Below the pieces are notes generated by a model. It was not told where the DNA came from. It saw only the letters and a program-made list of their open reading frames with translations, and searched no databases. The translations under genes and the position numbers were made by a program. From a virus (lineage: Duplodnaviria; Caudoviricetes), in IMG/VR virus record IMGVR_UViG_3300028903_000001, positions 32,001 through 96,000 of that record: DNA of 64,000 nucleotides; one strand, written 5' to 3'. Of the stretch, positions 35,807-53,658 are shown in pieces. Positions within the stretch are counted from its first letter, which is position 1. Each line of letters opens with the position of its first letter.

Positions 35807-37435
35807 TCAATGCTTCCCATAGACGACGGGGAGTCGAACCACTCTCTGGTCCCGCTTCCCACCCGTTACGCCCCAGCAGACGCGACATTCAGTCTTCTTG
35901 TTCATGTCAATCGCAATGGCGCAGCAGCCCGCCGCCTCGTAGGCTTGCGTCTTAGCCGTGCCGTAGACCTTGCCTGGGTTCTCTCTCTGAACCTTGCCCA
36001 TGTTCGTCTTGGAGGCAGACATGGGCCTGCCATGCGGGTCTAGGACGAACCGCTTCTCTCTCACATCGACGATTGCGTCGTAAAACACTCCATCCTTGGG
36101 AAGCGTCGCGATATCGACGTCGGTGGGATACATGGGATAGGAGAGTGGATAGGTCTGGGCCGGATTGTCCTTGATCTTGACGCCCTCTTCTCTGATATCT
36201 GGCGTCTCCCTCTTGCCCTGGATCTTGGCCCTAGCCCCACCACCGATCACGGAGGGCAGGTAGGCGGGGCAGGCCCATGTCTCGGGGCCCGTGTCCGAGA
36301 TCTGTACCTGAATCTTGCCCTTTTTGATATCGAAACTGATCGTGTTGCTGCTCGTGCCTCCGCTCATGCCAGCGACACTGGGCTCTGGCGCGTCGAAAAA
36401 GATGCCAGAGGGCCGGATCGCGAGGTTCTTGGGGAACTTGCCTTTTCGCACCACTTCCTCGAGCAGTCTCGCTCCGCTGCTCGAGGTCCAGATCCGGGTC
36501 GGGGCCCAGAAGTGGATATCTTTCATCGACCTGACGATTTCCAGCCACATCCCCAGGTATTCGCGTGAGAAGAAGTCGCCGCTGTCGTGGATGCGGAAGA
36601 AATCGGGGTGCGGAATCACAGCGAGCTTGTTCGGGTCGCTCGTCCTCGACCGTGCCCTGCGACTCACGTCTTGCGCCATGCGAATCGCAGCTTTCATCAC
36701 GGGAATAAAGGTGCCAGTCTTTACCGCATAGTCGGTCCACATCTTGCGCCACTGCATGACGAGGATGATACTTGGATTGCCGTAGCTGCCTTTCAGTGCG
36801 TAGCAGCCGTTGCAAATAAACCTCTCCTTGGCTTCTCCTGGAGCCATGGGTAGGGAATCGACGTACTCCTTCGCCGCAGCGACTCTCAGCCTTCGAATGC
36901 CAGACAGTATCTTGAGACTGTCAAGCGCCCCCTTCTCAAGCTCCATTCGCTCCGCGTCGAATCCAATCGCAGAGCCGGGGCAGCATCCGCCGAACCTGGG
37001 AGGTCCTGCGGGAAGGTTCCAGGAGTAGCAACCCATCTTCGTGGTACGGGTCAGAAGCGCACAATTTCTCACGATGACAGAGGTCGGCTTGTGAAGCTCA
37101 CCGGAATCAGCGAGGTACTTTTTGATGAAAGCGTTTTCCGACGCGCCTTTGCGGTCTTTTCTCGCCTCGTAAGCGATATTGTCCATGTCGCGCCAAAGCA
37201 CGGGTTGGTCGAATCGGAAACCGAGTAGACCGCCGCCGACTCTATGATATCTCCAGCCCCTGGGAGTCTCTGCGATCCGCTTTATCGCCTTCCACTCCGC
37301 ATCGCTTCCAGGCACCGCCTTAGCGTGTGCCAGGTAGGTATCCGGCAGAATCTCGGCTCTCTCAATGAAAGGTCGCGTCCATAGCACATGCTTCTGTGCC
37401 GTGTTTTCTGCCTCTTTGCTCATAGCCTTCTCCAC
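35807..37435 (-). CDS. Phage Gp88-like protein (Cys-rich)
   Basis: TKMGCYSWNLPA...CPG, CNGCYALKGSY, FRIHDSGDFFS, FWAPTR, CPA, CRVCW...VVYGKH motifs. Confidence 0.7.
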   Translation of the reverse strand: MEKAMSKEAENTAQKHVLWTRPFIERAEILPDTYLAHAKAVPGSDAEWKAIKRIAETPRGWRYHRVGGGLLGFRFDQPVLWRDMDNIAYEARKDRKGASENAFIKKYLADSGELHKPTSVIVRNCALLTRTTKMGCYSWNLPAGPPRFGGCCPGSAIGFDAERMELEKGALDSLKILSGIRRLRVAAAKEYVDSLPMAPGEAKERFICNGCYALKGSYGNPSIILVMQWRKMWTDYAVKTGTFIPVMKAAIRMAQDVSRRARSRTSDPNKLAVIPHPDFFRIHDSGDFFSREYLGMWLEIVRSMKDIHFWAPTRIWTSSSGARLLEEVVRKGKFPKNLAIRPSGIFFDAPEPSVAGMSGGTSSNTISFDIKKGKIQVQISDTGPETWACPAYLPSVIGGGARAKIQGKRETPDIREEGVKIKDNPAQTYPLSYPMYPTDVDIATLPKDGVFYDAIVDVREKRFVLDPHGRPMSASKTNMGKVQRENPGKVYGTAKTQAYEAAGCCAIAIDMNKKTECRVCWGVTGGKRDQRVVRLPVVYGKH

Positions 37436-38823
37436 GTCTTAGGGATCACGATCTTGCCTCGCCGCCGGATCGGGTTTGGTGATATCTGCCAGGTCTTACC
37501 GCCGATGTAGGGTATCTTGGTGTCTGCCTTTCGCATGCCCATGCTCTTAGGCAAGTCCTCGTACAGGCTTCGCGGCGAGCCAAATTGTTGCTTCTGCTCA
37601 TAGCTCAGCATCTCGACTCGCAGCCCGGCCTTCTCCGCAATGTCGAAGACGAGAGCCAATGCGTCGTAGTAGAACCTCTCGACAAACGGCTGCATCACGT
37701 CTAGCGCGGCATGAATCTTCTCGTCGGTGAGTCCCTTCGCCTTAAGTCGGCTTTGAAACTGTTCGTCGCTAAGCCCCTTGCGAACGATGGGAAGGTCGCT
37801 CTGCACCTCCTCGACGAGAATCGATTCTTCTGCCAAAATTATGTGTGAGTACCTCACCCAGCCGATAGTGAAGAGACCGAGTTTCAGCACGGGATGCGAG
37901 GAGCGATACGACACGTCTCGAATCGCTTCAATCGTATTGAGCACTTCCGGCTCGTCACTGACCAATGCCGGGTCGATGTTGAGTTGCAGCACGTTGTTGG
38001 GATAGGTGCTAAGTCGCTGAAGCTCCGAGGTCCACTTCGTCTCGGTAATCTGCCAAGTCATGCCGTAGCTATCGATTAGCTTCTTCGCCGCATCGGGCGT
38101 CAGCGTACCGCCACCTATATCGTGCTTGACCGTCTCGAATGCATCGGGGAAGGTTCGCTTGAAGGCGGCAATCTTCATCGGCTCGGTGACCTTGGCTAGC
38201 GCCTTAGCGCCTGCTCGCTTTCTGCCATAGACTGTCTTGGGCCCGATCTTATTTGGCTCCAGAATGGTTCCGGTGAGGTTCGCGCCCTCAAGGTTCGCTT
38301 CACGGAGGTTCGCGCTAGTAAGGTCCGCGTGATACAAGTCCGCTCTGGTGAGGTTCGCTCTGGTGAGGTTCGCTCTGGTGAGGTCCGCGTCGGTGAGGTT
38401 CGCGCCAGTGAGGTTCGCGTCGGCGAGGTTCGCGCGAAAGAGGTTCGCTCCGGTGAGGTTTAAGTTATGGAGGTCCGCGTCGGTGAGGTTCGCGCCAGTG
38501 AGGTTCGCGTCGGTGAGGTTCGCTCCGGTGAGGTTCGCGCCAGTGAGGTCCGCGTCGGTGAGGTTCGCATCCTCAAGGTACGCTCCGGTGAGGTTCGCGC
38601 CAGTGAGGTCCGCGTCGGTGAGGTCCGCGCCAGTGAGGTTCGCGCCCACAAGAATTGCGTTGGATAGATCTGCCTCGGCAAGGTTGACCCCGCGCAGGTC
38701 AGCCCCGGTGAGGTCTGCCTTAGCCAGATTAGCTTGTTCGCCTCCCTGCTCATAGCCTTCCCTCCAGAGTCTGTGCAGCCTCACTATCTCGCCTACCTGC
38801 TCCTTGGTAACTTTTCGGCTCAT
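37420..38823 (-). CDS. Pentapeptide-repeat protein fused to an unknown C-terminal domain
   Basis: About 31 A(N/D)LT(G/D/R) repeats; C-terminal domain with IGWVR and ILVEEVQSD motifs; ends SPNPIRRRGK. Confidence 0.85.
   Translation of the reverse strand: MSRKVTKEQVGEIVRLHRLWREGYEQGGEQANLAKADLTGADLRGVNLAEADLSNAILVGANLTGADLTDADLTGANLTGAYLEDANLTDADLTGANLTGANLTDANLTGANLTDADLHNLNLTGANLFRANLADANLTGANLTDADLTRANLTRANLTRADLYHADLTSANLREANLEGANLTGTILEPNKIGPKTVYGRKRAGAKALAKVTEPMKIAAFKRTFPDAFETVKHDIGGGTLTPDAAKKLIDSYGMTWQITETKWTSELQRLSTYPNNVLQLNIDPALVSDEPEVLNTIEAIRDVSYRSSHPVLKLGLFTIGWVRYSHIILAEESILVEEVQSDLPIVRKGLSDEQFQSRLKAKGLTDEKIHAALDVMQPFVERFYYDALALVFDIAEKAGLRVEMLSYEQKQQFGSPRSLYEDLPKSMGMRKADTKIPYIGGKTWQISPNPIRRRGKIVIPKTWRRL
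38272..38715. repeat. 15-bp tandem repeats encoding the pentapeptide solenoid
   Basis: Unit GTGAGGT(T/C)CGC(G/T)(C/T)C(A/G) repeated with little divergence. Confidence 0.9.
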
Positions 38824-43820: not shown

Positions 43821-43870
43821 CTCGTCCTCCTTGACCCCAGGGTCAAGTCGTGCATTTTGATCAAGTACAG

Positions 43871-43943
43871 CGTCCCCGGCAGGACTCGAACCTGCAAATT
43901 GCGGTTTAGGAAACCGCTGCTCTATCCATTGAGCTACGGAGAC
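43871..43943 (-). tRNA. tRNA-Arg (anticodon CCT)
   Basis: GTCTCCGTAGCTCAATGGATAGAGCAGCGGTTTCCTAAACCGCAATTTGCAGGTTCGAGTCCTGCCGGGGACG folds into a cloverleaf with D-arm, GTTCGA T-loop and CCT anticodon; CCA not encoded. Confidence 0.95.
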
Positions 43944-45024: not shown

Positions 45025-45043
45025 CCTCGTTTTGGAGTCTAGT

Positions 45044-46012
45044 ATGTCTAACACCTACATCGTAAAGCCTGACTCGAGCGCCGCGCTCGCGACCGACCTC
45101 GAGGATCTTGCGGACCAGGCCAAGGACTTCATCAAAGCTTCGAAGTCGAAAGCGACGCGCACAGCTTACAGGTCGGACTTCGATGCCTTCACCTCGTGGT
45201 GCCGGGAACACGTTCTGGTGTCGATCCCGGCGAGACCCGAGACAGTGGCGATGTACGCCGCACACATGGCCCGCGAGGGGCTCGGCGTGTCGAGTGTCCA
45301 GCGAGCCATGGCGGCGATATCGCAGGCGCACAGAATGGCCGGAATCGAGTCGCCAACCCAGGCATCCGTGGTGAGGGAAACCGTCCGTGGCATCCGGCGC
45401 AGCCTCGGCGTGAAGCCGAACAAGAAGGCCCCCGTCACGATCGACGAGCTTCGAAAGATGGTCGCGACTCGCCCACAGACCCTGCTCGGCCTGCGAGACC
45501 GCGCGCTGCTTCTGCTCGGCTTCAGCGGCGCGTTTCGCCGCTCCGAGCTTGCCGCGCTCGACCATGCCGACCTGGATTTTGTCGCCGAGGGCGTCGTCGT
45601 CACGGTGCGTCGCAGCAAAACCGATCAGGAAGGCGAGGGGCTCGAGAAGGCGATTCCCTACGCCATGGACCAGACCATGTGCCCGGTCCTTACGCTTCAG
45701 TCCTGGCTCGACGCGGCTGGAACGAGTGATGGTCCCGTGTTTCCGAGCATCGATCGCGGCGACAACCTGTCTGGACGCATGAGCGACAGGGCCGTGGCAA
45801 GGACCGTGCAGAGAGCCGCGAGGCGCGTCGGTCTGGACCCGTCCAGATTCGCGGGGCACAGCCTCCGAGCCGGGTTTGCCACATCGGCCATTCTCGCCGG
45901 GAAATCGGAGGCAGATACGATGCGGCAGACCGGGCATAGGAGTATTGCCGTTTTCAGGGGTTATGTTCGAGTCGCTAATCTGTGGAAGAGTAATGCGTCT
46001 AAACTGCTTTGA
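45044..46012 (+). CDS. Tyrosine recombinase, Cre/TnpS-like
   Basis: Full catalytic set: RDRALLLLGFSGAFRRSEL, RSKTDQ, GHSLRAG, QTGHRS, GYVR; GGAG RBS before ATG 45044. Confidence 0.95.
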   Translation: MSNTYIVKPDSSAALATDLEDLADQAKDFIKASKSKATRTAYRSDFDAFTSWCREHVLVSIPARPETVAMYAAHMAREGLGVSSVQRAMAAISQAHRMAGIESPTQASVVRETVRGIRRSLGVKPNKKAPVTIDELRKMVATRPQTLLGLRDRALLLLGFSGAFRRSELAALDHADLDFVAEGVVVTVRRSKTDQEGEGLEKAIPYAMDQTMCPVLTLQSWLDAAGTSDGPVFPSIDRGDNLSGRMSDRAVARTVQRAARRVGLDPSRFAGHSLRAGFATSAILAGKSEADTMRQTGHRSIAVFRGYVRVANLWKSNASKLL

Positions 46013-46057
46013 TGGGGCGCAGCTACCATACCACTGCCGCCGCCTGGGGGCTGGCCG

Positions 46058-46989
46058 GTCTCGACAAGCAAGATGTCGAGCTACTACTGCCACACGGGAT
46101 CCGTGTTTCCTAGTTGATCTGTCACTCATGGGTCTCGACAAGCAAGATGTCGAGCTACTACCGCTACACTCGTCAAGCAGTTGGGACCTTGAGTTGGAGT
46201 GGGAGTCTCGACAAGCAAGATGTCGAGCTACTACTGCTACACGCCAGATAGGCCTCAGCGCGATCGTCAAGACCAAGGTCTCGACAAACAAGATGTCGAG
46301 CTACTACCGCTACCGCTGATGCAGACAAGCGTTTGACTGCGGCAAAGGAGTCTCGACAAGCAAGATGTCGAGCTACTACCGCTACCGGCTCGTCGCTCCC
46401 AGGGCGCGGCGCAACCAGGCTTGACAGGTCACGGCTCGACCCTGGTCTCGACAAGCAAGATGTCGAGCTACTACCGCTACCGCGCCTCGGTGAGGTATTT
46501 GCGGGAGACGACGCCGGGTCTCGACAAGCAAGATGTCGAGCTACTACCGCTACGATGACGATGGGGCGCGTCGCCATCCGAGATTGCCGCATGTCTCGAC
46601 AAGCAAGATGTCGAGCTACTACCGCTACTTAGAGACGTCTTCGCCTCGGGCGACCCGGAGAACGTCTCGACAAGCAAGATGTCGAGCTACTACCGCTACG
46701 ACCGGGTTCGAATTTCGCATCGAGGGCACCTCTCTTGTCTCGACAAGCAAGATGTCGAGCTACTACCGCTACAGGACAAAAAGGGGCAACCGAAGCCGGC
46801 ACACCCGCCGTCTCGACAAGCAAGATGTCGAGCTACTACCGCTACGTCGGGCAGGACGATCAAGATCCCATCGACGCGATTGTCTCGACAAGCAAGATGT
46901 CGAGCTACTACCGCTACCATCCCGCTACCCACCTGGAAGGCGCTCGGCGAAATGTCTCGACAAGCAAGATGTCGAGCTACTACCGCTAC
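46058..46989 (-). CRISPR. CRISPR array 2: 13 repeats, 12 spacers
   Basis: 36-bp repeat GTAGCGGTAGTAGCTCGACATCTTGCTTGTCGAGAC (minus strand; 7-bp stem CTCGACA/TGTCGAG near the 3' end); spacers 35-39 bp except one of 59 bp; variant repeats cluster at the leader-distal (left) end. Confidence 0.98.
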
Positions 46990-47168
46990 GAGTCTGGCAG
47001 GACGCTCGCAATTTCGACGGGTTACAGCACGACTTGCGAGCGGTCCTCCAAGCCTACTGTCTCGGATCAATTTTCAACGACCAGGATCGGCGTAGTGCCG
47101 CAGATTCTACCTCATCTCTGAGGCTTTCGAGCGGTCCCAGCGGTTTCGGGACCACCCAGGCGCTCGCG
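46990..47168 (-). promoter_or_regulatory. CRISPR leader, copy 2 (179 bp)
   Basis: Identical to 48422..48600 except at 4 positions; contains GCGAGCG/CGCTCG inverted and direct motifs and TTGAAAAT. Confidence 0.9.
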
Positions 47169-47738
47169 AAGCTTCTCGTTCTCCTTTTCCAAACTCCTGA
47201 CCCTTGCCTTCAGTGTCTTGTTCTCAGCCCTAAGCTCCCTATTCTCCCTGGACAGTTTATCGAACAGGTTCTCCTTCTGGGGCTTGACCCTAACCTCGGG
47301 GACGTAGTGCTTTCGGACTATCGACGCTGCGCTCCACGAACTCGGCTCTTTACCATTCCTGACTCGAAACTCAATGAGTTCTGCCATGGCAGATCTTGTT
47401 GCCAGACCGTGTACGGATCTTGACGGAGCATCGGGAGGAATGATGAGCAACTTCTCTGCCGCAGGGATACCTATCTTACGAATGTTGTCAATGCCGCCAC
47501 ACAACTCGACACAAAGTTTGAATCTCGCAAACCTTGTTGGCTGGGCAAGGTCACTCACATGGAGCACCTCCACAAATGTGGCCCACCCATACCTACCACC
47601 TACACCACTCTTCCATGCCGATTCGTTCTTTTCGAACCTGACGAGACCAGCCATGAAGTCAACCCCGGCCTCGGAGTATGCGGTCCTTAGCGCCTCGCAC
47701 TCCTTTACGAGCGCATCAAATCTCTTCTTGGTCGCCAT
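47112..47738 (-). CDS. Unknown protein embedded between the two CRISPR arrays, C-terminal coiled coil
   Basis: 208 aa, GAGGTG RBS; RYGWATFVEVL motif, leucine-zipper LSRENRELRAENKTLKARVRSLEKENEKL; last 18 codons are supplied by the leader copy. Confidence 0.8.
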   Translation of the reverse strand: MATKKRFDALVKECEALRTAYSEAGVDFMAGLVRFEKNESAWKSGVGGRYGWATFVEVLHVSDLAQPTRFARFKLCVELCGGIDNIRKIGIPAAEKLLIIPPDAPSRSVHGLATRSAMAELIEFRVRNGKEPSSWSAASIVRKHYVPEVRVKPQKENLFDKLSRENRELRAENKTLKARVRSLEKENEKLRERLGGPETAGTARKPQR

Positions 47739-47756
47739 GTCTCACCTCACTGTTAT

Positions 47757-48421
47757 CTATCGACTACCTAGTGTCGAGCTACTACCGCTACAAAGTCGAA
47801 TTGCGCGGAGATATCGTCCGTCGCGTGTCTCGACAAGCAAGATGTCGAGCTACTACCGCTACATCTCGCGTCATCGGCTTGCTGGCTCGGCAGTTCCACG
47901 CGGTGCTCCGTCTCGACAAGCAAGATGTCGAGCTACTACCGCTACGGTCTCCATATAGACCGGCACGAAATACGAATCGATGTCTCGACAAGCAAGATGT
48001 CGAGCTACTACCGCTACCGAATTCGGTCGATATCGGTGCGATTCTTGGCTGGCGTCTCGACAAGCAAGATGTCGAGCTACTACCGCTACCCCCAAGCTCA
48101 CACCTGTTGCACAGACCGTGATGTTCGTCTCGACAAGCAAGATGTCGAGCTACTACCGCTACCTGGCGTCTCGACAAGCAAGATGTCGAGCTACTACCGC
48201 TACAATGGGACAGACGAGGGCGGCAGGACGATGCAGCGGTCTCGACAAGCAAGATGTCGAGCTACTACCGCTACGATCGGATCGCGGAGGCCCGCGTCGC
48301 TGAGTGGTTGGCCGTCTCGACAAGCAAGATGTCGAGCTACTACCGCTACTGCGCTGGCCCGTGCCGTTGCGCAGTTTGACGCGCTGTCTCGACAAGCAAG
48401 ATGTCGAGCTACTACCGCTAC
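47757..48421 (-). CRISPR. CRISPR array 1: 9 full repeats plus a degenerate terminal repeat, 9 spacers
   Basis: Same 36-bp repeat at 47827, 47910, 47982, 48054, 48127, 48168, 48239, 48314 and 48386; degenerate copy at 47757..47791; spacers 35-39 bp except 47 bp and 5 bp. Confidence 0.98.
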
Positions 48422-48600
48422 GGGTCTGGCAGGACGCTCGCAATTTCGACGGGTTACAGCACGACTTGCGAGCGGTCCTCCAAGCCCACTGTCTCGGATC
48501 AATTTTCAACGACCAGGATCGGCGTAGTGCCGCAGATTCGACCTCATCTCTGAGGCTTTCGAGCGGTCCCAGCGGTTTCGGAACCACCCAGGCGCTCGCG
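48422..48600 (-). promoter_or_regulatory. CRISPR leader, copy 1 (179 bp)
   Basis: Fills the whole gap between the cas12m stop and the first repeat; duplicated at 46990..47168. Confidence 0.9.
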
Positions 48601-48601
48601 T

Positions 48602-50596
48602 TTACTCAGCCGCGACGGCGAGCATCTTCTCCTGTCTCCTGATGATTTCCAACACTTCGTTTTGCTTCCCGTCATCGTTGAGCATGTTCAACAATCTAAC
48701 GTGGAATGTATCACGAGTCAGTCCGCAATGCGAGCAGGAAAACATATGCGCCTTCACATCTTTATTTCCCTTCTCGAGTCTGCCGCACCTGGGGCATCTC
48801 ACTGAGCTATTCTCGACACTGACCTTCTCATAGAACACTCCCCTACCTCTGGCGGCATTCTTGATGCATTCGCGAAAGATGCCTGGGGCCACGATCTGGA
48901 GATTGGACCTCGACTTTTGTCTCTGCCTCTTACCAATCTCGCCCTCGCTCTTCTCTTCCTCTTTCTCCTTCTCCACTATCTGCTTGAAGTTGGTGCCGTC
49001 CACAAGTATTCGGGAGTACGTCCTCGCCAATCTGGCCGCGACGTTTCGATACGCATTGTTTCTTCTGCGTTTCGCCGTTTCATGCATACCCCCCTCAAAA
49101 CGGTACAGATGCAGGTTCTGCTTCCTCCATGCCATCATTCTCTCGTAAATCTCTGCGTCACCCTCGAATCGATTCTTCTCCCACGTCGTGACTAGATTGG
49201 CAAGCCGCCTTGGAGCCCTCCACTTTTGCATGCGAGCTATCGCCTGCTTTGATGTCGGTGTTCCATCGACACTCTTATCCTCCTCGTCATCGATGTCTCT
49301 TGCCGTAGCATTTCGCATCCACGCTGGCAGCTTATCGATCATGCTGAGCCAAGAGACTAGCTCCTTCATCGCCTTGTTGAAGTTGTCGTCCCTGGTGCGT
49401 GAGATCTCTTCCTTCCTTCTGAAGCTGGCGAAGATTCCGCTCCTGCCGCCGTCGCTCTCCACGTTGTATGGGCTCTGCACGCATCCCTTCCCACACTCGA
49501 TCTTTTCAACGATCTTGTCTCGAGACAGATCAAACACTCCGGTCTCCCCGTCCTCCGAGAGCCAATGCGCGACCCTGATCTTGTTGCCTTCCACTGCCCG
49601 CCATCCCAGCACTACGGCAACCGTGCCCCCTGCGGGCAGTGGCGGCTTCTCCGATTGCTTGTCAAGCTCTACCGTGATCTCACAGGACCAGCGCAGGTCT
49701 GGACCCCGCCTTCGCCTGGTAACGGTTACCCAGGTGATTCTCGAATTCGGTGGCAGCGGCCTATGAAGTATCATCGGCCACTTGGCTACGATGTATTCGC
49801 TCTTTCCCCTGGCGGTCCCGGCGACTGCCATGGTCAGAGTAGTCCTTGCCGCACGCCTCCTGTCGCACCGTCTTTCCGAGGTGAGCGCAACCGTGTCAAC
49901 CGGATCGATGATAGCTCTATGGTCGTTGCTAAAAATGTCAAGAGGGATTTTGCCCTTGCCGCCCTGTATCTGCACCGACAAAGACCCCTCACCTTTCCAC
50001 CGTTTGAATTCAGGGTTGTTGTCCTCCCTCCCTTCGTACATGGGGACCTTGGAACTCTCAAAGAATGCCTTGTCCACAAGTAACTTCGTGCCCCAGAAAG
50101 CCGGGGAGTCGTGACTGGCCTGTCTCCTCATCCTCGCCGCGATACCGTTGTTCGGTGTCTTGTCCGAAAAAGCTTCGGCTCTTGTCTTTTTCTTGCCAGT
50201 GCTTTCCTTGCCATTGATCTCGAGCATGCGGGCCTTTAGCGCTGGCGTGGCCCTCAACTCCTTGATCCTAGCAATGAGTTTGGCGATCTTTTCATCAATC
50301 GCCTCAACCTTTTCCGCGAACTCTTTGCTGGACCTGTCCTTGTCCGACTTGCCCTTGTAGAGCTTAGCCTTTTCCACGCCCAGGTCTTTGATTTGACCCA
50401 ATAGCTCTCGGATGCCGTACTCGTCTTCCGCTGCCCGCTTCAGATCCCTGACCTTGCACTCCACGCTCACTAGCTCATTTCTGTACCTATGCGCGTGCCA
50501 CAACTGCTCTTCCACCACATCCGCGTTAAAAACCGGAGGCAAGAGCCCATATTTCATCACCAATGGCATCGTGTTCCCCTTTCTTCTCTGCGTCAT
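48602..50596 (-). CDS. cas12m: Cas12m-like (type V-M / V-U1) effector with degenerate RuvC active site
   Basis: EQLWHAHRYRNELVSVE, FWGTKLLV, FKRWKGEGSLSVQIQGG, HRPLP, GTVAVVLGWR, WRAPRRLANL, RRNNAYR, ILVDG, APGIFR and CPRC...CSHC align by eye with Cas12m family motifs; directly upstream of leader and array. Likely start is ATG 50569 (AAGGGG RBS). Confidence 0.85.
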   Translation of the reverse strand: MTQRRKGNTMPLVMKYGLLPPVFNADVVEEQLWHAHRYRNELVSVECKVRDLKRAAEDEYGIRELLGQIKDLGVEKAKLYKGKSDKDRSSKEFAEKVEAIDEKIAKLIARIKELRATPALKARMLEINGKESTGKKKTRAEAFSDKTPNNGIAARMRRQASHDSPAFWGTKLLVDKAFFESSKVPMYEGREDNNPEFKRWKGEGSLSVQIQGGKGKIPLDIFSNDHRAIIDPVDTVALTSERRCDRRRAARTTLTMAVAGTARGKSEYIVAKWPMILHRPLPPNSRITWVTVTRRRRGPDLRWSCEITVELDKQSEKPPLPAGGTVAVVLGWRAVEGNKIRVAHWLSEDGETGVFDLSRDKIVEKIECGKGCVQSPYNVESDGGRSGIFASFRRKEEISRTRDDNFNKAMKELVSWLSMIDKLPAWMRNATARDIDDEEDKSVDGTPTSKQAIARMQKWRAPRRLANLVTTWEKNRFEGDAEIYERMMAWRKQNLHLYRFEGGMHETAKRRRNNAYRNVAARLARTYSRILVDGTNFKQIVEKEKEEEKSEGEIGKRQRQKSRSNLQIVAPGIFRECIKNAARGRGVFYEKVSVENSSVRCPRCGRLEKGNKDVKAHMFSCSHCGLTRDTFHVRLLNMLNDDGKQNEVLEIIRRQEKMLAVAAE

Positions 50597-50950
50597 CTAC
50601 TGTCGAGCTACTACTGCTACCTCGAACAACTCTCCGACCGTCACTCCGGTCGTATAGCTCTCATACCTCTCACCAACCTCTGTGAGACTAGCAAGTCTGA
50701 TTCCTTTTGGCCACTCAATTGTTTCGAGCCGAAACGATTTCTCTACCCTCGCCCACTTGTACAGCGAGCCGTCGGGCCAGCTATACTGATGCCTGTACTC
50801 GATACCGTTTTGCTCCAGAGTGGACTCGACGAGACGCTCGGCTAGTGACAAAACGAAGTCAGCCCTCGCCTCTCTGCCCATTTCTTCGCGCCCAGCTATG
50901 TTGAACAGGCCACTGTAGCTAAAGCTCATCGAGTAGTATCTGTAACTCAT
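50597..50950 (-). CDS. Hypothetical protein; C-terminus (VAVVARQ) encoded by the half repeat
   Basis: 117 aa, ATGA overlap with the exonuclease gene. Confidence 0.55.
   Translation of the reverse strand: MSYRYYSMSFSYSGLFNIAGREEMGREARADFVLSLAERLVESTLEQNGIEYRHQYSWPDGSLYKWARVEKSFRLETIEWPKGIRLASLTEVGERYESYTTGVTVGELFEVAVVARQ
50601..50620 (-). repeat. Orphan half CRISPR repeat upstream of cas12m
   Basis: GTAGCAGTAGTAGCTCGACA equals the first 20 nt of the repeat (same one-base variant as the repeat at 46205). Confidence 0.9.
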
Positions 50951-51630
50951 GCCAGCCTCACGACACGGAACGGCAGCTTCGCCGCATCGTCAATCGCCAT
51001 CTTCCTGACCCAGCGCTTCTTGTCTCTCTCCCACCGGAAGCCCGCGTCCTTGGCAATGTCTCTGTCCTCGTAGGGAATCTTCGCTTCGAAAACAGCCTTG
51101 GGACGAAGACCTCGAGCGAGCAGTTCCGAGACGTCGTGGCCGAGTTCCGCGACCCTGGTCATGAGTCGCGCCAGCATGAAGCAGTCGCCCAGCGCACGGT
51201 GCGGATCGACGACTCCGATCCCGTGGTCGAGACAGAGCGAGACGAGGCTCGAGCCGGGCCTTTGCTCGAGTGGCCACGTCACGTCGCCACACGTATCGAT
51301 CCACGGCACCTTCGCCGGAAACGTGTCGGGCACCCATTGCCGATCGAAGTCGGCGTTGTGGGCCAGCACGGCTTCACAGCCACCCGCTCTGACGCCGACC
51401 TCGCCCCAGACATACTCCGCGTCCATTCCACTGCTCTGCCTGAGCAGACCCACCGGAATATGGTTGACGCGCTCCGCGTCATTGCCGTCGCTGTGGATGA
51501 GGCTCGAGAAAGCCTCGACCATCGCGCGGTGCCTAATCGAGTAGACGATGCAGCCAACCTCGATGCATTTTGCGCCCTGCGCCGGATCGAGGCCCGTCGT
51601 CTCCGTGTCGAGTATGCATACTAGGTCCAT
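50947..51630 (-). CDS. DEDDh 3'-5' exonuclease (DnaQ/epsilon-like)
   Basis: LDTETTG, AHNADFD and HRALGDC motifs; C-terminal AKDAGFRWERDKKRW; start ATG 51630 with GGAG RBS. Confidence 0.92.
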   Translation of the reverse strand: MDLVCILDTETTGLDPAQGAKCIEVGCIVYSIRHRAMVEAFSSLIHSDGNDAERVNHIPVGLLRQSSGMDAEYVWGEVGVRAGGCEAVLAHNADFDRQWVPDTFPAKVPWIDTCGDVTWPLEQRPGSSLVSLCLDHGIGVVDPHRALGDCFMLARLMTRVAELGHDVSELLARGLRPKAVFEAKIPYEDRDIAKDAGFRWERDKKRWVRKMAIDDAAKLPFRVVRLA

Positions 51631-51640
51631 GTCACTCCGA

Positions 51641-53365
51641 TCACTTTTCGCTACCAGACGTTGCCAATGCAACGCCCAGTGCCGATGCATCCAACAGGTT
51701 TCCCCGAAGGATGGGTTGATCTCCCAAAGCTCGCAGGAATATCCCGCGAGCGCCGTTGTAATCTCGATCCATTGACACGCCGGTCGATGCCGATCGGACA
51801 GTCTTTGCGCCACCAAGCTTGGCGTTGATCTCGCCGGTCCACGACACGGTCTTGCTCGTCCAAGCCTCGTTCTGGTCGAGCACGAGCTTGCCGTACTCGA
51901 ACGCCTTGTGCTTCAGGAAAGTCTTGAACCGATAGTGCGAGAACGTCAGCATGGATCGCACCGACTTCGCGCGAAGCCTGCGCGCCCCGCGCCGAACCAT
52001 CTCCGAGGTCTCGAACGTCGGCAGCACGATCACGTCGAAGCTCTTGACCAGAAACGCTGCCACCTTGTGGTGCAGATCGTCTACAAGGTTTCGAATCCTG
52101 ACCTGCATGCTCACGATAGCACGCCGAAGATTTCGCTTCCGAAGACGATGCGTCTCCAACCTGCGCCTCGAAATGAGGTCATCCATGTGCGAGCACAACC
52201 GCTGAATCTTCCCGAAGTCGCCAGCACCAAGCTTGCCGCAACTGGACTCCGTGTAGAACGTTTGGAAGGATCGTATCCCTGGATCGAGAGCAACGACGCG
52301 CCCTTGGTTTTCGGCTACGCACCGCTTTTGCTGCACGGGAACGATCAGAAACCACCGCCCTCTTTCGCAGACTAGCCTAAGATCGCAATGTTCCTTTGGT
52401 ACCTCCTCGACCATTCGAAGCGCCCCTCGGGATAGAGTCGGGTAGACCCCACCGTTTCGAAGTGCGCTTTTGGGGATGTAGCAGGACTGCACCGGGTTCT
52501 TTCTCGACCTGAACCCGACGTCCTGAAAGCCTCCCCCCTCCTTGAATCTGCGCTTTGCCGCCGACACGGCTTTACAGGCATCGCGCACCGCCACTGACCT
52601 GATCTGGTAGGGCGTCTCCTCGGACCAAGCAGGGAGACCTCGCAGCAGCCCCGTCTTGATCGACTTCCAGTTCGCCTTCGTCCCCGGGGTCTTCAGAAAG
52701 CTCACGGCAGCGTTGAAGGCGACGCGCGCAGTCCCAAACCACTGTCTGAAGATGCTCTCCTGCTGCCTAGTGGGGTAGAGTCGGATCTTCTTTGATTTGA
52801 GAAGCGTATCGTCGCAGCCCGTGCATTCGGCAAGAGAAGACGTGAATGATGGCGAGAAGATCGTCGGATAGCTCTCGCTCGGGGCTGTGTTCAACTCGAT
52901 CGAGAACCAAGAGTTCGCCACCGTTTTGCTCGAGCATGTGGGCGATGAGTTCGACACCAAAGCGGGCAAGGCGGTCCTTGTGGGCAACCACAACCGTGAG
53001 CTTTGCTCCTCATGCCAATCGGTCCAGTAGGGAGAGCAGTCCTTTACGCTTGAAGTTGAGACCACTTCCGATGTCCTTGACGATTTCGGCATCAGGGAAG
53101 CGCTGTCGCATGTAGACAACCTGTCTTGCGAGGTCGTCCTTTTGCTTCGGGGAGGAGACCCTGAAGTAGCAGATGGTGGCGGGGGGCAAGGCGTCTTTGA
53201 CGAAGGACTCGACATCGAAGAGCCGCTGACCCGCAGGGTTTCTAACGTGTTTGATGAGTCCAGCATCAGCGTATTTCCGCACCGTATTGGGGGCACATGC
53301 CGAGCGACTGGCATGCCATCCGTAGAGGGACGAGCTTTATGTCGTATGGTAGAGGACGGTGGCAT
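51641..53365 (-). CDS. tnpB: IS607 TnpB RNA-guided nuclease (start uncertain; core domain about 51641..52806)
   Basis: KSKKIRLYP, VVALDPGIRSF (RuvC-I Asp), VIVLP then QNEAWTSKT (displaced Glu typical of IS607/Fanzor-like TnpB), DRDYNGARGIFLR (RuvC-III Asp); zinc-finger cysteines absent. Confidence 0.9.
   Translation of the reverse strand: MPPSSTIRHKARPSTDGMPVARHVPPIRCGNTLMLDSSNTLETLRVSGSSMSSPSSKTPCPPPPSATSGSPPRSKRTTSQDRLSTCDSASLMPKSSRTSEVVSTSSVKDCSPYWTDWHEEQSSRLWLPTRTALPALVSNSSPTCSSKTVANSWFSIELNTAPSESYPTIFSPSFTSSLAECTGCDDTLLKSKKIRLYPTRQQESIFRQWFGTARVAFNAAVSFLKTPGTKANWKSIKTGLLRGLPAWSEETPYQIRSVAVRDACKAVSAAKRRFKEGGGFQDVGFRSRKNPVQSCYIPKSALRNGGVYPTLSRGALRMVEEVPKEHCDLRLVCERGRWFLIVPVQQKRCVAENQGRVVALDPGIRSFQTFYTESSCGKLGAGDFGKIQRLCSHMDDLISRRRLETHRLRKRNLRRAIVSMQVRIRNLVDDLHHKVAAFLVKSFDVIVLPTFETSEMVRRGARRLRAKSVRSMLTFSHYRFKTFLKHKAFEYGKLVLDQNEAWTSKTVSWTGEINAKLGGAKTVRSASTGVSMDRDYNGARGIFLRALGDQPILRGNLLDASALGVALATSGSEK
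52767..53340 (-). pseudogene. tnpA: IS607 TnpA serine recombinase, inactivated
   Basis: RVSSPKQKDDLARQ, DIGSGLNFKRKGL, KDRLARFG and ELSDDLLAIIHVFSCR motifs; start mutated to ATA (53340), +1 frameshift in a C5 run (53289..53293), in-frame TGA at 53010..53012. Confidence 0.88.
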
Positions 53366-53373
53366 CCGACTAC

Positions 53374-53658
53374 CTATTCGTCAACCTTATTTCTAACCCG
53401 CATCACGATGTCATCGGGCAGTCCTATGTCCCTGGCGATTTCCCTTGACTTGCTCAATCTCCCCGCGAAAAACGCATCCTGCAGCGAGTTGACGATCGTT
53501 GCAGGATCGATTTTCTTCGCGCAGTCCCGGTCGATGACGAGGTTGACGCCAGGGCCATGGATCCAGACGTAGTCAGACTTGTCCTCATCCTCGAACTCAT
53601 CGACCCTGTAGATCATTTCCATGCCAGCCTCCGGTGTGGGAGCAGGTTCTTCGGCCAC
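53374..53658 (-). CDS. Small hypothetical protein
   Basis: Co-directional ORF ending at the IS607 left end. Confidence 0.5.
   Translation of the reverse strand: MAEEPAPTPEAGMEMIYRVDEFEDEDKSDYVWIHGPGVNLVIDRDCAKKIDPATIVNSLQDAFFAGRLSKSREIARDIGLPDDIVMRVRNKVDE

What the first reader, a model, noticed from the sequence alone, without database searches (positions are those of the whole stretch)
46058..50620. Virus-encoded, nuclease-dead Cas12m-like CRISPR system with two arrays and no adaptation module
Seen: a 655-664 aa TnpB-family protein with Cas12m motifs directly upstream of a leader and arrays of a 36-bp repeat with a 3' hairpin, inside a viral gene context, with no cas1/cas2/cas4 in the window. 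The RuvC positions read VAVVLGWR (Val for the RuvC-I Asp), ILVDG (Asp for Glu) and RDTFHV (Phe where the catalytic Asp of DRDxNAA falls). Known: characterised Cas12m proteins bind dsDNA without cutting, silence transcription and process their own crRNA. Inference: this virus carries a programmable repressor with about 21 guides, aimed at competing elements or host genes. It is more degenerate than the Cas12m I recall and has two extra insertions (ECGKGC segment, DIDDEED segment).
Basis: partly seen in the sequence, partly recalled or inferred. Interest (0 to 1): 0.9.

Follow-up and report, generated by a model that had tools for sequence, protein, structure and literature searches.

The report
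Phage Cas12m with ablated RuvC and partner
A 120-kb sludge virus carries a CRISPR system whose Cas12m-type protein has lost its DNA-cutting residues and always travels with a small unstudied partner gene, so it most likely blocks rather than cuts its still-unknown targets.

Summary
Window 46058-50620 (- strand) carries a 655/664-aa Cas12m-family gene. It also carries two CRISPR arrays of a 36-nt repeat (13 repeats; 9 repeats plus a truncated one; 20 real spacers) and a duplicated leader. The complete 119,895-bp IMG/VR virus record has no cas1, cas2 or cas4.

Family membership is firm from a full-length V-U1 profile match, PDB sequence hits and a fold match to Cas12m2 and GoCas12m. The RuvC positions read V329/D533/F631, where MmCas12m2 has H317/D485/D579.

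Much of the claimed novelty is ordinary. V-M systems normally lack adaptation genes, even DED-type Cas12m do not cut, IMG/VR already holds about 47 viral Cas12m loci, and a 2026 preprint reports a phage Cas12m.

Three things appear new:
- A monophyletic clade has lost the RuvC-I Asp (V/S/A-D-x).
- In 12 of 12 DNA-checked loci of that clade, a 192-227-aa gene sits next to cas12m. It has a possible ParB-like HTH domain and a leucine zipper, and it is absent from about 45 other viral Cas12m loci.
- The leaders share a conserved box and hairpin.

A mobile unit of a promoter-like stretch plus a solitary repeat also occurs in three related viruses.

No protospacer was found, so the targets are unknown. 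DNA binding, lack of cutting and silencing are inferred, not tested.

The parts
48602..50596 (-). cas12m-like effector gene (664 aa from the first ATG; probable start is M10 at 50569, giving 655 aa). RuvC positions V329/D533/F631. crRNA-contact residues H278-R279 and the CxxC...CxxC zinc finger (C601, C604, C621, C624) are conserved.
50601..50620 (-). Partial repeat: the 5' 20 nt of the repeat with 1 mismatch and no hairpin. It lies 31 nt upstream of the probable cas12m start and overlaps the last codons of the upstream 117-aa ORF.
   Evidence: A comparable 5' partial repeat precedes cas12m in L062, and a hairpin-bearing repeat-like unit precedes it in L064. Absent in the closest relative L002.
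48422..48600 (-). Leader copy 2 (179 nt), directly after the cas12m stop codon. Its first 57 nt (48544-48600) are a relic of the 3' end of orf208. It contains the invariant box ACCGCTCGC and a strong hairpin or palindrome (about 48427-48482).
   Evidence: MFE -27.9 kcal/mol, z -4.7.
47772..48421 (-). CRISPR array 2: 9 full 36-nt repeats plus a truncated 20-nt terminal repeat (47772-47791). It has 8 spacers of 35-47 nt and one 5-nt remnant (48163-48167).
47112..47738 (-). orf208, the clade-specific partner gene. It has a helical N-terminal domain (weak ParB/Noc/Spo0J HTH-like fold), a C-terminal leucine-zipper coiled coil and a basic tail.
46990..47168 (-). Leader copy 1 (98% identical to copy 2). 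It overlaps the last 57 nt of orf208 and carries the same box and hairpin (about 46995-47050).
46058..46989 (-). CRISPR array 1: 13 repeats, with the three trailer-end repeats carrying 1-2 substitutions. It has 12 spacers of 35-39 nt plus one of 59 nt.

Best explanation
What it is. This is a virus-borne type V-M CRISPR-Cas12m system without adaptation genes. It belongs to a distinct clade in which the RuvC-I Asp is lost (V, S or A) and the RuvC-III Asp is usually lost too.

Proposed mechanism, all on the - strand:
1. cas12m and orf208 are expressed.
2. Each of the two identical leaders drives a pre-crRNA.
3. Cas12m binds the 3' hairpin handle of each repeat, using H278/R279 to contact A(-2)/C(-1). 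It processes the pre-crRNA in a RuvC-independent way, as shown for other Cas12m.
4. The resulting 20 crRNAs guide PAM-dependent binding to double-stranded DNA without cutting.
5. Interference comes from a roadblock to transcription or replication of the target.

Role of the partner. Orf208 is probably a dimeric DNA-binding protein. I see two options: it controls the locus through the conserved leader palindrome, or it acts with Cas12m at bound targets.

Targets. The most likely targets are other mobile elements competing for the same host, but none has been identified.

Shown here: family membership, fold, residue replacements, array anatomy and strand, absence of adaptation genes, and the exclusive cas12m-orf208 linkage.

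Inferred, not tested: DNA binding without cutting, crRNA processing, silencing, the role of Orf208 and the nature of the targets.
For: Family and fold:
- PDB sequence hits to Cas12m: 23vw at 1.7e-37, 8pm4 at 4e-29, 8hhl at 3e-17.
- PADLOC Cas12u1 profile at 8e-70 over its full length.
- AF2 model with pLDDT 85.8. Its best folds are Cas12m2 and GoCas12m at TM 0.64-0.71, against at most 0.39 for Cas12f and TnpB.

Residues:
- Triad V/D/F by alignment.
- H278 and R279 are invariant in the 30-sequence alignment, and the four zinc-finger Cys are invariant in the 7-member clade alignment and nearly invariant in the 30.

Clade:
- The 9 members in the tree form one clade with support 100, nested among DED-type viral Cas12m.
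- They share 37-57% identity over the full length. The third triad position drifts freely (F, S, A, P, M, G), as expected if catalysis is abandoned while the protein is kept.

Repeat and strand:
- The repeat hairpin covaries between loci: CTCGAC/GTCGAG, CTCGA/TCGAG, CTCGTC/GACGAG.
- Strand is set by the 3' hairpin, the trailer-end degeneracy and the gene order.

Partner and leader:
- An Orf208 homologue lies directly downstream of cas12m in 11 other DNA-checked loci. None is found in about 45 other viral Cas12m loci.
- In this window orf208 is separated from cas12m by leader copy 2 and array 2.
- The family has only 10 clusters in 5.8 billion.
- The leader box ACCnCTCGC is invariant in the 9 aligned loci. 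The hairpin has z between -3.9 and -4.9 in four loci. The box occurs only in the two leaders of this genome.

Adaptation genes: no cas1, cas2 or cas4 in the complete genome.

Literature: Cas12m of the DED, HDD and NDD types bind but do not cut, silence transcription, and process pre-crRNA independently of RuvC (PMC11013384, PMC10442227).
Against: - No protospacer was found for any spacer, so neither interference nor the PAM can be inferred.
- No RNA data exist for the locus.
- The DNA-binding assignment of Orf208 is weak: VIA Z about 7 to ParB/Spo0J, which is within the range of chance for helical models, and Foldseek gave E above 1.
- The leader hairpin is weak in 3 of 8 loci, and RNAalifold found no consensus on a sequence alignment.
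- In MmCas12m2 the residues H317 and D579 hold a Mg2+ ion that helps bind the non-target strand (PMC10442227). V329 and F631 cannot do this, so binding may be weaker or may need help.
- Viral status rests on the IMG/VR and CheckV call plus endolysin, tail-fibre-like and replication genes. No terminase, portal or capsid profile hit was obtained.
Confidence: 0.75

Rival explanations
1. The system is a domesticated gene regulator rather than an interference system, in the manner of TldR or of crRNA-like regulatory RNAs. Its guides would tune genes of the host or of the virus itself, for example during lysogeny. The locus sits next to the integrase.
For: - The effector can only bind.
- The locus lies beside a tyrosine integrase in this virus and in its closest relative.
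- Spacer GC of 0.61 is compatible with a host or relatives of similar GC.
- No viral or plasmid protospacers were found.
Against: - No spacer matches the virus's own genome beyond 14-16 nt, which is chance level.
- The arrays have about 20 diverse spacers, trailer-end decay and different content in the relative, which looks like turnover rather than fixed regulatory guides.
- The other clade loci lie in unrelated neighbourhoods without an integrase.
- The host is unknown, so host targeting could not be tested.
Confidence: 0.15
2. The effector still causes target destruction. It would do so by recruiting a nuclease in trans, such as Orf208, the nearby DEDDh exonuclease or a host enzyme, or through an unrecognised active site.
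For: - A strictly co-inherited partner gene suggests a second activity.
- A DEDDh exonuclease lies two genes upstream in this virus, in virus B and in L088.
- Mg2+-dependent, RuvC-independent RNA cleavage in Cas12m implies an unmapped catalytic site (PMC11013384).
Against: - Orf208 shows no nuclease motif or fold. It is helical with a coiled coil.
- The exonuclease belongs to the replication module next to DnaB. It is absent beside cas12m in L085, L087, L089 and L090.
Confidence: 0.07
3. The locus is a decaying, non-functional remnant of a Cas12m system.
For: - The catalytic residues are lost.
- Array 2 has a 5-nt pseudo-spacer and a truncated terminal repeat.
- There are odd long spacers of 47 and 59 nt.
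- No targets were found.
Against: - The ORFs are full-length and intact in 12 loci at 37-57% identity, with crRNA-contact and zinc-finger residues conserved.
- 18 of 22 repeats are identical.
- The leader duplicate is kept at 98% identity.
- The clade sits on a long, well-supported branch and has diversified.
Confidence: 0.03

Closest known systems
Type V-M CRISPR-Cas12m: MmCas12m2 (PDB 8HHL/8HIO), GoCas12m (8PM4), PmCas12m
   Same: - Overall fold (TM 0.64-0.71) and size class.
- A single 36-nt-repeat crRNA with a 3' hairpin ending ...A(-2)C(-1).
- The WED His-Arg pair that reads it, and the TNB zinc finger.
- No tracrRNA-like anti-repeat and no adaptation genes.
- A non-canonical RuvC site.
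   Different: - The triad is V-D-F, so neither of the two residues that hold the Mg2+ ion and non-target strand in MmCas12m2 (H317, D579) is present.
- The NAA motif after RuvC-III is lost.
- The zinc finger is CCCC rather than HCCC.
- There is a strictly linked partner gene (orf208) and a conserved leader hairpin.
- The genome is viral.
- Sequence identity is only 19-23%.
MvCas12m of myxophage MV-1 (bioRxiv 10.64898/2026.09.14.751636)
   Same: A phage-borne Cas12m next to an array, with no cas1, cas2 or cas4 and no protospacers found.
   Different: MvCas12m keeps D305/E463/D555, has one array with 8 spacers, and no partner gene is described. Here the triad is ablated, there are two arrays with a duplicated leader, and orf208 is present.
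Solitary repeat units, RNA anti-CRISPRs (Racr; PMC10651486) and viral crRNA-like regulators (Cracr; bioRxiv 10.1101/2024.10.29.618823)
   Same: The 67-nt unit outside the window is a lone CRISPR repeat 3' part. It sits directly behind a promoter-like stretch in viral genomes and is not next to cas genes.
   Different: - The repeat type is V-M, whereas reported Racr and Cracr are I-C, I-E, I-F and V-A.
- The carrier viruses encode a Cas12m system themselves, and in virus B the unit matches that virus's own repeat.
- The unit sits at three non-homologous positions.
- No partial match of its downstream 'guide' to cas12m upstream regions was found.
TldR (nuclease-dead TnpB-like repressors) and Cas12k/Cas12c (binding-only type V effectors)
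   Same: RNA-guided DNA binding with an inactivated RuvC domain, used for repression or targeting.
   Different: TldR has no CRISPR array and uses an omega-RNA-type guide. Cas12k works with Tn7 transposition proteins. This locus has arrays, and its sequence and fold place it with Cas12m.

Membership tests
Cas12m (type V-M, formerly V-U1) | Full-length sequence similarity to the family profile and to characterised members | tested here: met
   PADLOC Cas12u1 at 8e-70 covering positions 2-529 of 533. PDB phmmer hits to 23vw at 1.7e-37, 8pm4 at 4e-29 and 8hhl at 3e-17.
Cas12m (type V-M, formerly V-U1) | Bilobed Cas12m fold with a coiled-coil REC, WED, RuvC and an inserted zinc-finger TNB domain | tested here: met
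   AF2 pLDDT 85.8. Foldseek top four hits are all Cas12m (E 5e-26, TM 0.58-0.73); the next is Cas12f at TMq 0.36. There are long helices at 25-128. Residues C601, C604, C621 and C624 are conserved.
Cas12m (type V-M, formerly V-U1) | Adjacent CRISPR array, single crRNA with a 3' repeat hairpin, no tracrRNA | tested here: met
   Arrays lie downstream of the gene on the same strand. There is a 7-bp 3' hairpin followed by AC. No reverse-strand copy of the repeat exists in the genome at up to 6 mismatches. A more degenerate anti-repeat is not excluded.
Cas12m (type V-M, formerly V-U1) | WED His-Arg pair that reads C(-1) and the G:A pair of the crRNA (H269/R270 in MmCas12m2) | tested here: met
   H278 and R279 align to H269 and R270. 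They are invariant in 30 family members.
Cas12m (type V-M, formerly V-U1) | RuvC triad of one of the described types (DED, NED, DND, HDD, NDD, HEK/HQK) | tested here: not met
   The triad is V329/D533/F631. Across the clade and its nearest relatives it is V/S/A-D-(A, F, S, P, M, G or D). This is a new state of a feature already known to vary, not a reason for exclusion.
Cas12m (type V-M, formerly V-U1) | No adaptation genes in the locus | tested here: met
   Cas1, Cas2 and Cas4 profiles find nothing in the complete 119,895-bp genome, with positive controls.
Cas12m (type V-M, formerly V-U1) | PAM-dependent dsDNA binding without cleavage, transcriptional silencing and self-processing of pre-crRNA | not testable with these tools
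   These need biochemistry. No RNA run holds the locus and no protospacers are available to infer a PAM.
IS200/IS605 TnpB (ordinary transposon nuclease) | About 400 aa, intact DED, an omega-RNA at the 3' end, transposon ends, no CRISPR array | tested here: not met
   The protein has 655 aa, the triad is lost, arrays are present, and the fold match to TnpB is only TMq 0.30-0.37. Pfam OrfB_IS605 scores only 0.093.
Solitary repeat unit / Racr-type RNA (for the 67-nt unit outside the window) | A lone CRISPR-repeat copy in a viral genome, away from cas genes | tested here: met
   Genome 22381-22411 matches 30 of 31 nt of the virus-B repeat. It is a single copy about 56 kb from the cas12m locus. The same unit occurs in two other viruses.
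Solitary repeat unit / Racr-type RNA (for the 67-nt unit outside the window) | A promoter directly upstream, and expression as a small RNA that inhibits the cognate Cas protein | tested here: inconclusive
   A conserved 36-nt upstream stretch reads TTGACC-16 nt-TATCAC, but the consensus scan does not call it a promoter. Expression and inhibition are not testable here.
ParB/Noc/Spo0J-type HTH DNA-binding domain (for Orf208) | Fold similarity of the N-terminal domain to the ParB DNA-binding domain | tested here: inconclusive
   VIA-align gives Z 7.1 to 6s6h_B and Z 7.0 to 1vz0_A (rmsd 3.9 over 108 residues). Foldseek gives Noc 6y93_B at TMt 0.62 but E 4. The ESM Atlas lead is DUF3102 at 0.89-0.90. 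Pfam finds only coiled-coil families.

The most novel reading that the evidence does not exclude
The Cas12m clade that lost the RuvC-I Asp, together with Orf208, forms a two-protein programmable silencer. Having lost the metal site that helps hold the displaced strand, the effector would depend on a dimeric ParB-like partner, either to stabilise or spread repression or to gate array expression through the leader palindrome. In addition, this virus group wages RNA-level CRISPR warfare among viruses. A mobile unit made of a promoter-like stretch plus a solitary V-M repeat would act as the first type V-M RNA anti-CRISPR, or as a guide-hijacking RNA, against the Cas12m of competing viruses.
Probability: 0.2. 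Interest if true: 0.8.

Novelty: new variant of a known kind. Interest (0 to 1): 0.55.

Why it matters
Cas12m proteins are being developed as compact programmable DNA binders for base editing and epigenome editing. This clade shows which parts can be removed in nature while the protein is kept. It lacks both metal ligands of the RuvC pocket yet stays conserved across at least 12 loci. The strictly linked partner protein could be a natural enhancer or regulator of binding-only interference. No accessory protein is described for V-M systems in the papers read here.

For phage biology, the locus adds to evidence that viruses carry CRISPR systems without adaptation genes. The repeat-only unit in three related viruses points to RNA-level counter-measures between viruses, which could be tested directly with these sequences.

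Tried and rejected
Spacer targets (nothing found):
- All 20 spacers against the masked own genome: best hits were 14-16 nt, which is chance level.
- Spacers against all fetched relatives. Virus-B spacers against this genome, and virus-B spacers against the 'Parcubacteria' MAG that holds virus B.
- Both arrays against 50,697 phage records and 72,556 plasmid records with blastn: none, apart from two chance hits in orf208.
- Exact 24-nt PAM-proximal parts of five spacers against IMG/VR: none.

Host: not identified.
- The only cellular-genome hit of the clade is a viral contig binned into a Parcubacteria MAG.
- I do not take that as host evidence. The contig GC of 0.55-0.56 and spacer GC of 0.60 do not look like a typical CPR genome, but that judgement comes from my own knowledge.

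Virion and packaging genes: PHROGs, Pfam, two terminase profiles and an ESM Atlas query recognised no terminase, portal or capsid.

Expression: no RNA holder is listed for the locus. Laying contigs of two activated-sludge runs only showed the usual assembly breaks at the arrays and double depth on the leader.

RNA families and structure:
- Rfam gave no match in 45900-53500.
- RNAalifold on a MAFFT alignment of leaders gave no consensus structure. The hairpin claim rests on single-sequence folds.

Solitary repeat unit: the idea that its downstream 'guide' partially matches cas12m upstream or leader regions (Cracr-style autorepression) found nothing at up to 3 mismatches in 16 nt.

Partial repeat in front of cas12m: the idea that it marks a recombination border was rejected. 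Nucleotide identity to virus B (86%) runs through it into the first 240 nt of cas12m.

Other: the consensus scan called no usable - strand promoter in the locus. The earlier-findings index was empty for this genome.

Full report
**Where the window lies.** The window is bases 32001-96000 of a 119,895-bp IMG/VR record. That record is classed as a virus with direct terminal repeats and a CheckV completeness of 100. The terminal repeat is 127 bp, the size of an assembly overlap, so the sequence closes on itself. GC is 0.577. Two activated-sludge runs hold the locus.

Gene content fits a phage:
- four endolysin PHROG families, a DNA methyltransferase and a polynucleotide kinase;
- a tail-fibre-like repeat protein and a DnaB helicase, and a GP88-family protein;
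- SNF2 and DEAD helicases and a PD-(D/E)XK nuclease;
- a tyrosine integrase and a tRNA-Arg.

No terminase, portal or capsid profile matched. 'Virus' therefore rests on the database classification and these accessory genes.

**Anatomy of the locus.** All parts read on the - strand, in this order:
1. A 20-nt partial repeat (50620-50601).
2. cas12m (50596 or 50569 to 48602).
3. A 179-nt leader (48600-48422).
4. Array 2 (48421-47772).
5. orf208 (47738-47112).
6. A second copy of the leader (47168-46990).
7. Array 1 (46989-46058).
8. The end of a convergent integrase gene (45032-46012, + strand).

- The repeat, GTAGCGGTAGTAGCTCGACATCTTGCTTGTCGAGAC, folds into a 7-bp hairpin that ends two bases before the spacer.
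- This leaves G(-24):A(-2) and C(-1). That matches the G:A pair and C(-1) which the MmCas12m2 structure shows are read by His269/Arg270 (PMC10442227).
- Trailer-end repeats of array 1 carry substitutions, while leader-end repeats are perfect. This agrees with the assigned polarity.
- There are 20 spacers of 35-59 nt and one 5-nt remnant. No spacer is shared between the arrays.
- The 216-nt duplication covers the last 57 nt of orf208, the leader and the first repeat.
- The copy behind cas12m therefore carries a relic of the orf208 3' end (48544-48600).
- I read this as a tandem duplication of orf208-leader-array, followed by loss of most of the first orf208 copy. That is inference.

**The effector is a Cas12m.**
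- phmmer against PDB chains gives Cas12m entries first: 23vw at 1.7e-37, 8pm4 at 4e-29, 8hhl and 8hio at about 3e-17. Cas12f and CasPhi appear only at 0.007 or worse.
- The PADLOC Cas12u1 (V-U1) model matches end to end at 8e-70.
- An AlphaFold2 model built on 30 homologues has pLDDT 85.8 and pTM 0.77. Its four best Foldseek hits are the Cas12m2 and GoCas12m structures (TM 0.58-0.73). Cas12f and TnpB reach at most 0.39 by query.
- H278 and R279 align to the crRNA-reading His269/Arg270 and are invariant in 30 relatives. A CxxC...CxxC zinc finger is kept.
- No reverse-strand copy of the repeat, which could mark a tracrRNA, exists in the genome at up to 6 mismatches.

**The RuvC site.**
- I checked the PDB numbering first: 8hhl carries two extra N-terminal residues relative to 8hio. 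With that correction, H317, D485 and D579 of MmCas12m2 align to V329, D533 and F631.
- Published Cas12m triads are HEK/HQK, HDD, DED/NED and DED/DND/NED (Wu 2022, as cited in PMC10442227), plus NDD (PMC11013384; bioRxiv 10.64898/2026.03.26.714355). V-D-F is not among them.
- It removes both ligands of the single Mg2+ ion that helps MmCas12m2 hold the non-target strand.

Two points from PMC11013384 temper the novelty. DED, HDD and NDD Cas12m all fail to cut and all bind DNA in a PAM-dependent way, with RuvC-independent pre-crRNA processing. And V-U systems typically lack adaptation genes. So 'nuclease-dead' and 'no cas1/cas2/cas4' (confirmed for the whole genome) are family traits rather than surprises.

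**A clade, not a one-off.**
- The word-indexed protein search found six relatives at 41-57% identity.
- All six read V or S at RuvC-I, D at RuvC-II and a non-acidic residue at RuvC-III.
- Two more turned up through the partner gene.
- In a tree of 71 Cas12m-like proteins these nine form one clade (support 100, stem length 0.73). The clade is nested among DED-bearing viral proteins, with an H-M-D pair as sister at support 93. This is a FastTree tree, unrooted, so the direction of change is inferred.
- A full profile scan of 1.84 billion representatives finds 1,876 family members at E <= 1e-30.
- Among the nearest representatives it finds further degenerate triads: VDM, ADG, VDS, VDD, SAS, SGA, STS, RVA.
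- The third position drifts freely while the rest of the protein stays conserved. This is what one expects if catalysis is abandoned but the protein is kept.

**Virus-borne Cas12m is not rare.**
- A scan of IMG/VR returned 47 loci encoding relatives. Many sit on contigs of 80-190 kb, and about half have an array directly downstream.
- Their triads are DED (25), NED (5), DKD (4), NDD (3), HMD (3) and NGD (2), besides this clade.
- A September 2026 preprint claims the first phage Cas12m. That protein has 610 aa, an intact DED triad and eight spacers (bioRxiv 10.64898/2026.09.14.751636).

**The partner gene.**
- The closest relative, virus B, is an ENA contig of 69 kb. It equals IMG/VR UViG_3300029288_000610 and is also filed in a 'Parcubacteria' MAG.
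- Virus B is 84-90% identical in the flanks but only about 66% identical across cas12m and orf208.
- Its gene order is RNase T-like exonuclease, orf122, cas12m, orf208, leader, a 16-repeat array, then integrase.
- Orf208 is 56% identical between the two viruses, the same as Cas12m.
- A homologue lies directly after cas12m in every clade locus I could read: L002, L059, L061, L062, L063, L064, L085, L087, L088, L089 and L090. One further locus shows it by gene calls only.
- It is found in none of about 45 other viral Cas12m loci.
- The family has only ten 90%-identity clusters among 5.8 billion.
- The AlphaFold2 model (pLDDT 83.8) is a helical domain of about 145 residues followed by one 36-residue helix. 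Pfam sees only leucine-zipper and coiled-coil families there.
- Fold searches give nothing significant. They do repeatedly place ParB, Noc and Spo0J DNA-binding domains at the top: VIA Z about 7, and Foldseek Noc at TMt 0.62 but E 4. The ESM Atlas points to DUF3102 and plasmid-partition-like clusters.
- I treat 'dimeric HTH DNA-binding protein' as a lead only.

**The leader.**
- Aligning the leaders of nine loci shows an invariant ACCnCTCGC box about 50-60 nt before the first repeat.
- In most loci the box is the 5' arm of a long hairpin or palindrome whose 3' arm changes in step with it.
- The z-scores are -4.7 (this virus), -3.9, -4.9, -4.7 and -2.5. Three other loci are weak, at -1.6, -1.2 and -0.2.
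- In this genome the 10-mer CCGCTCGCAA occurs only in the two leaders.
- A palindrome next to a gene for a probable dimer suggests an operator for Orf208. It could equally be an RNA structure in the pre-crRNA. RNAalifold on a plain alignment gave no consensus, so this remains a hypothesis.

**Partial repeats in front of genes.**
- The 5' 20 nt of the repeat, without the hairpin, sit 31 nt before the likely cas12m start (one mismatch). Another copy sits 33 nt before orf208, as the truncated end of array 2.
- L062 has a similar 5' partial repeat just before its cas12m ribosome-binding site.
- L064 has a hairpin-bearing repeat-like unit 14 nt before the ATG. Its stem differs from that of L064's own array repeat.
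- Virus B has none.
- I cannot explain these. Relics of upstream arrays and regulatory elements are both possible.

**A solitary repeat unit outside the window.**
- Genome 22345-22411 holds a 36-nt stretch (TTGACC, 16 nt, TATCAC) followed by the last 31 nt of the virus-B type repeat with one mismatch.
- The same 67-nt unit, 94-97% identical, sits in virus B and in a third related virus (L070).
- It lies at three non-homologous positions with sharp borders and a different downstream sequence each time. The flanks are only 68-86% identical.
- This matches the published description of viral solitary repeat units behind promoters, some of which are RNA anti-CRISPRs (PMC10651486) or Cas-hijacking regulatory RNAs (bioRxiv 10.1101/2024.10.29.618823).
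- No V-M example appears in either paper.
- Two cautions apply. The consensus promoter scan does not call the upstream stretch. And in virus B the unit matches that virus's own repeat, which fits a simple anti-CRISPR decoy less well.
- Its downstream bases show no partial match to cas12m upstream or leader regions.

**Targets.** None was found; the searches are listed under Tried and rejected. Mean spacer GC is 0.61, close to the virus group. The function 'silences competitors or host genes' is therefore the family-based default, not something shown here.

**Verdict.** The Cas12m assignment and the degenerate triad are correct. The framing as a striking novelty is only partly right. What is worth following up is the clade-specific pairing of a Cas12m that has lost its RuvC-I Asp with Orf208, the conserved leader element, and the mobile solitary V-M repeat in the same virus group.

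Noticed in passing
L054 5345-5411 (genome 22345-22411, outside the window); also L052 4486-4552 and L070 166-231: A 67-nt unit made of a conserved promoter-like stretch (TTGACC-16 nt-TATCAC) plus the 3' 31-32 nt of the virus-B type Cas12m repeat. It is 94-97% identical in three related viruses, at three non-homologous positions with sharp borders. It is a candidate type V-M solitary repeat unit, RNA anti-CRISPR or orphan guide.
   Followed up: partly
window 51641-53365 (-): A second TnpB-family gene of 574 aa with an HTH_OrfB_IS605 domain and a TNB zinc ribbon, and an intact DRD motif. Its best PDB hit is mimivirus Fanzor2 (L79) at 1e-25. It is an insertion relative to virus B, which lacks it between the DUF5131 gene and the exonuclease gene.
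   Followed up: partly
window 50947-51816 (-): A DEDDh/RNase T-type exonuclease two genes upstream of cas12m. It matches the PADLOC 'DEDDh, CRISPR-associated' model at 2.5e-20. An RNase_T-family gene lies upstream of cas12m in virus B (same synteny) and in L088, but is absent next to cas12m in L085, L087, L089 and L090. It is probably part of the replication module.
   Followed up: partly
L062 1-23; L064 about 60-91: Other clade loci also carry repeat fragments just upstream of cas12m. L062 has the 5' part of its own repeat before the RBS. L064 has a hairpin-bearing repeat-like unit (GGCTCGACGCTATAGATAGTCGAGAC) 14 nt before the ATG, with a stem unlike that of L064's own array repeat.
   Followed up: partly
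window 46846-46881 and 48204-48238: Spacers A1_11 and A2_7 share the 11-mer ATCGTCCTGCC. This resembles the last bases of the leader (GCGTCCTGCCAGAC) next to the first repeat. It may be a relic of earlier leader-repeat junctions inside the arrays.
   Followed up: no
IMG/VR loci L006-L050: There are 47 viral contigs with Cas12m relatives. Some carry triads not in the published lists (H-M-D, N-G-D, D-K-D), and several have arrays of 16-19 repeats directly downstream. L007 and L037 are two different cas12m genes on one 153-kb contig.
   Followed up: partly
window 37420-38823 (-), tandem repeats 38305-38646: About 22 copies of a 15-nt repeat lie inside a 467-aa ORF. That ORF matches several PHROGs of repeat-rich phage proteins, including a tail-fibre family.
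   Followed up: no
window 43870-43943 (-) and 45032-46012 (+): A tRNA-Arg(CCT) and a tyrosine integrase lie immediately beside the trailer end of array 1. The integrase side is 90% identical to virus B, whereas the CRISPR module is about 66% identical. The module therefore behaves as a fast-evolving or exchanged island between conserved flanks.
   Followed up: partly
L002 1-276: The closest relative virus carries a Tad2-like (anti-Thoeris family) gene about 10 kb upstream of its cas12m.
   Followed up: no
L073, L076, L077, L068 (metagenome contigs): Short arrays or clusters of a related hairpin repeat (GTAGCTCGACACCTTGAAGGTCGAGAC type) with about 30-nt spacing. They came up in the repeat pattern scan and their nature was not examined.
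   Followed up: no
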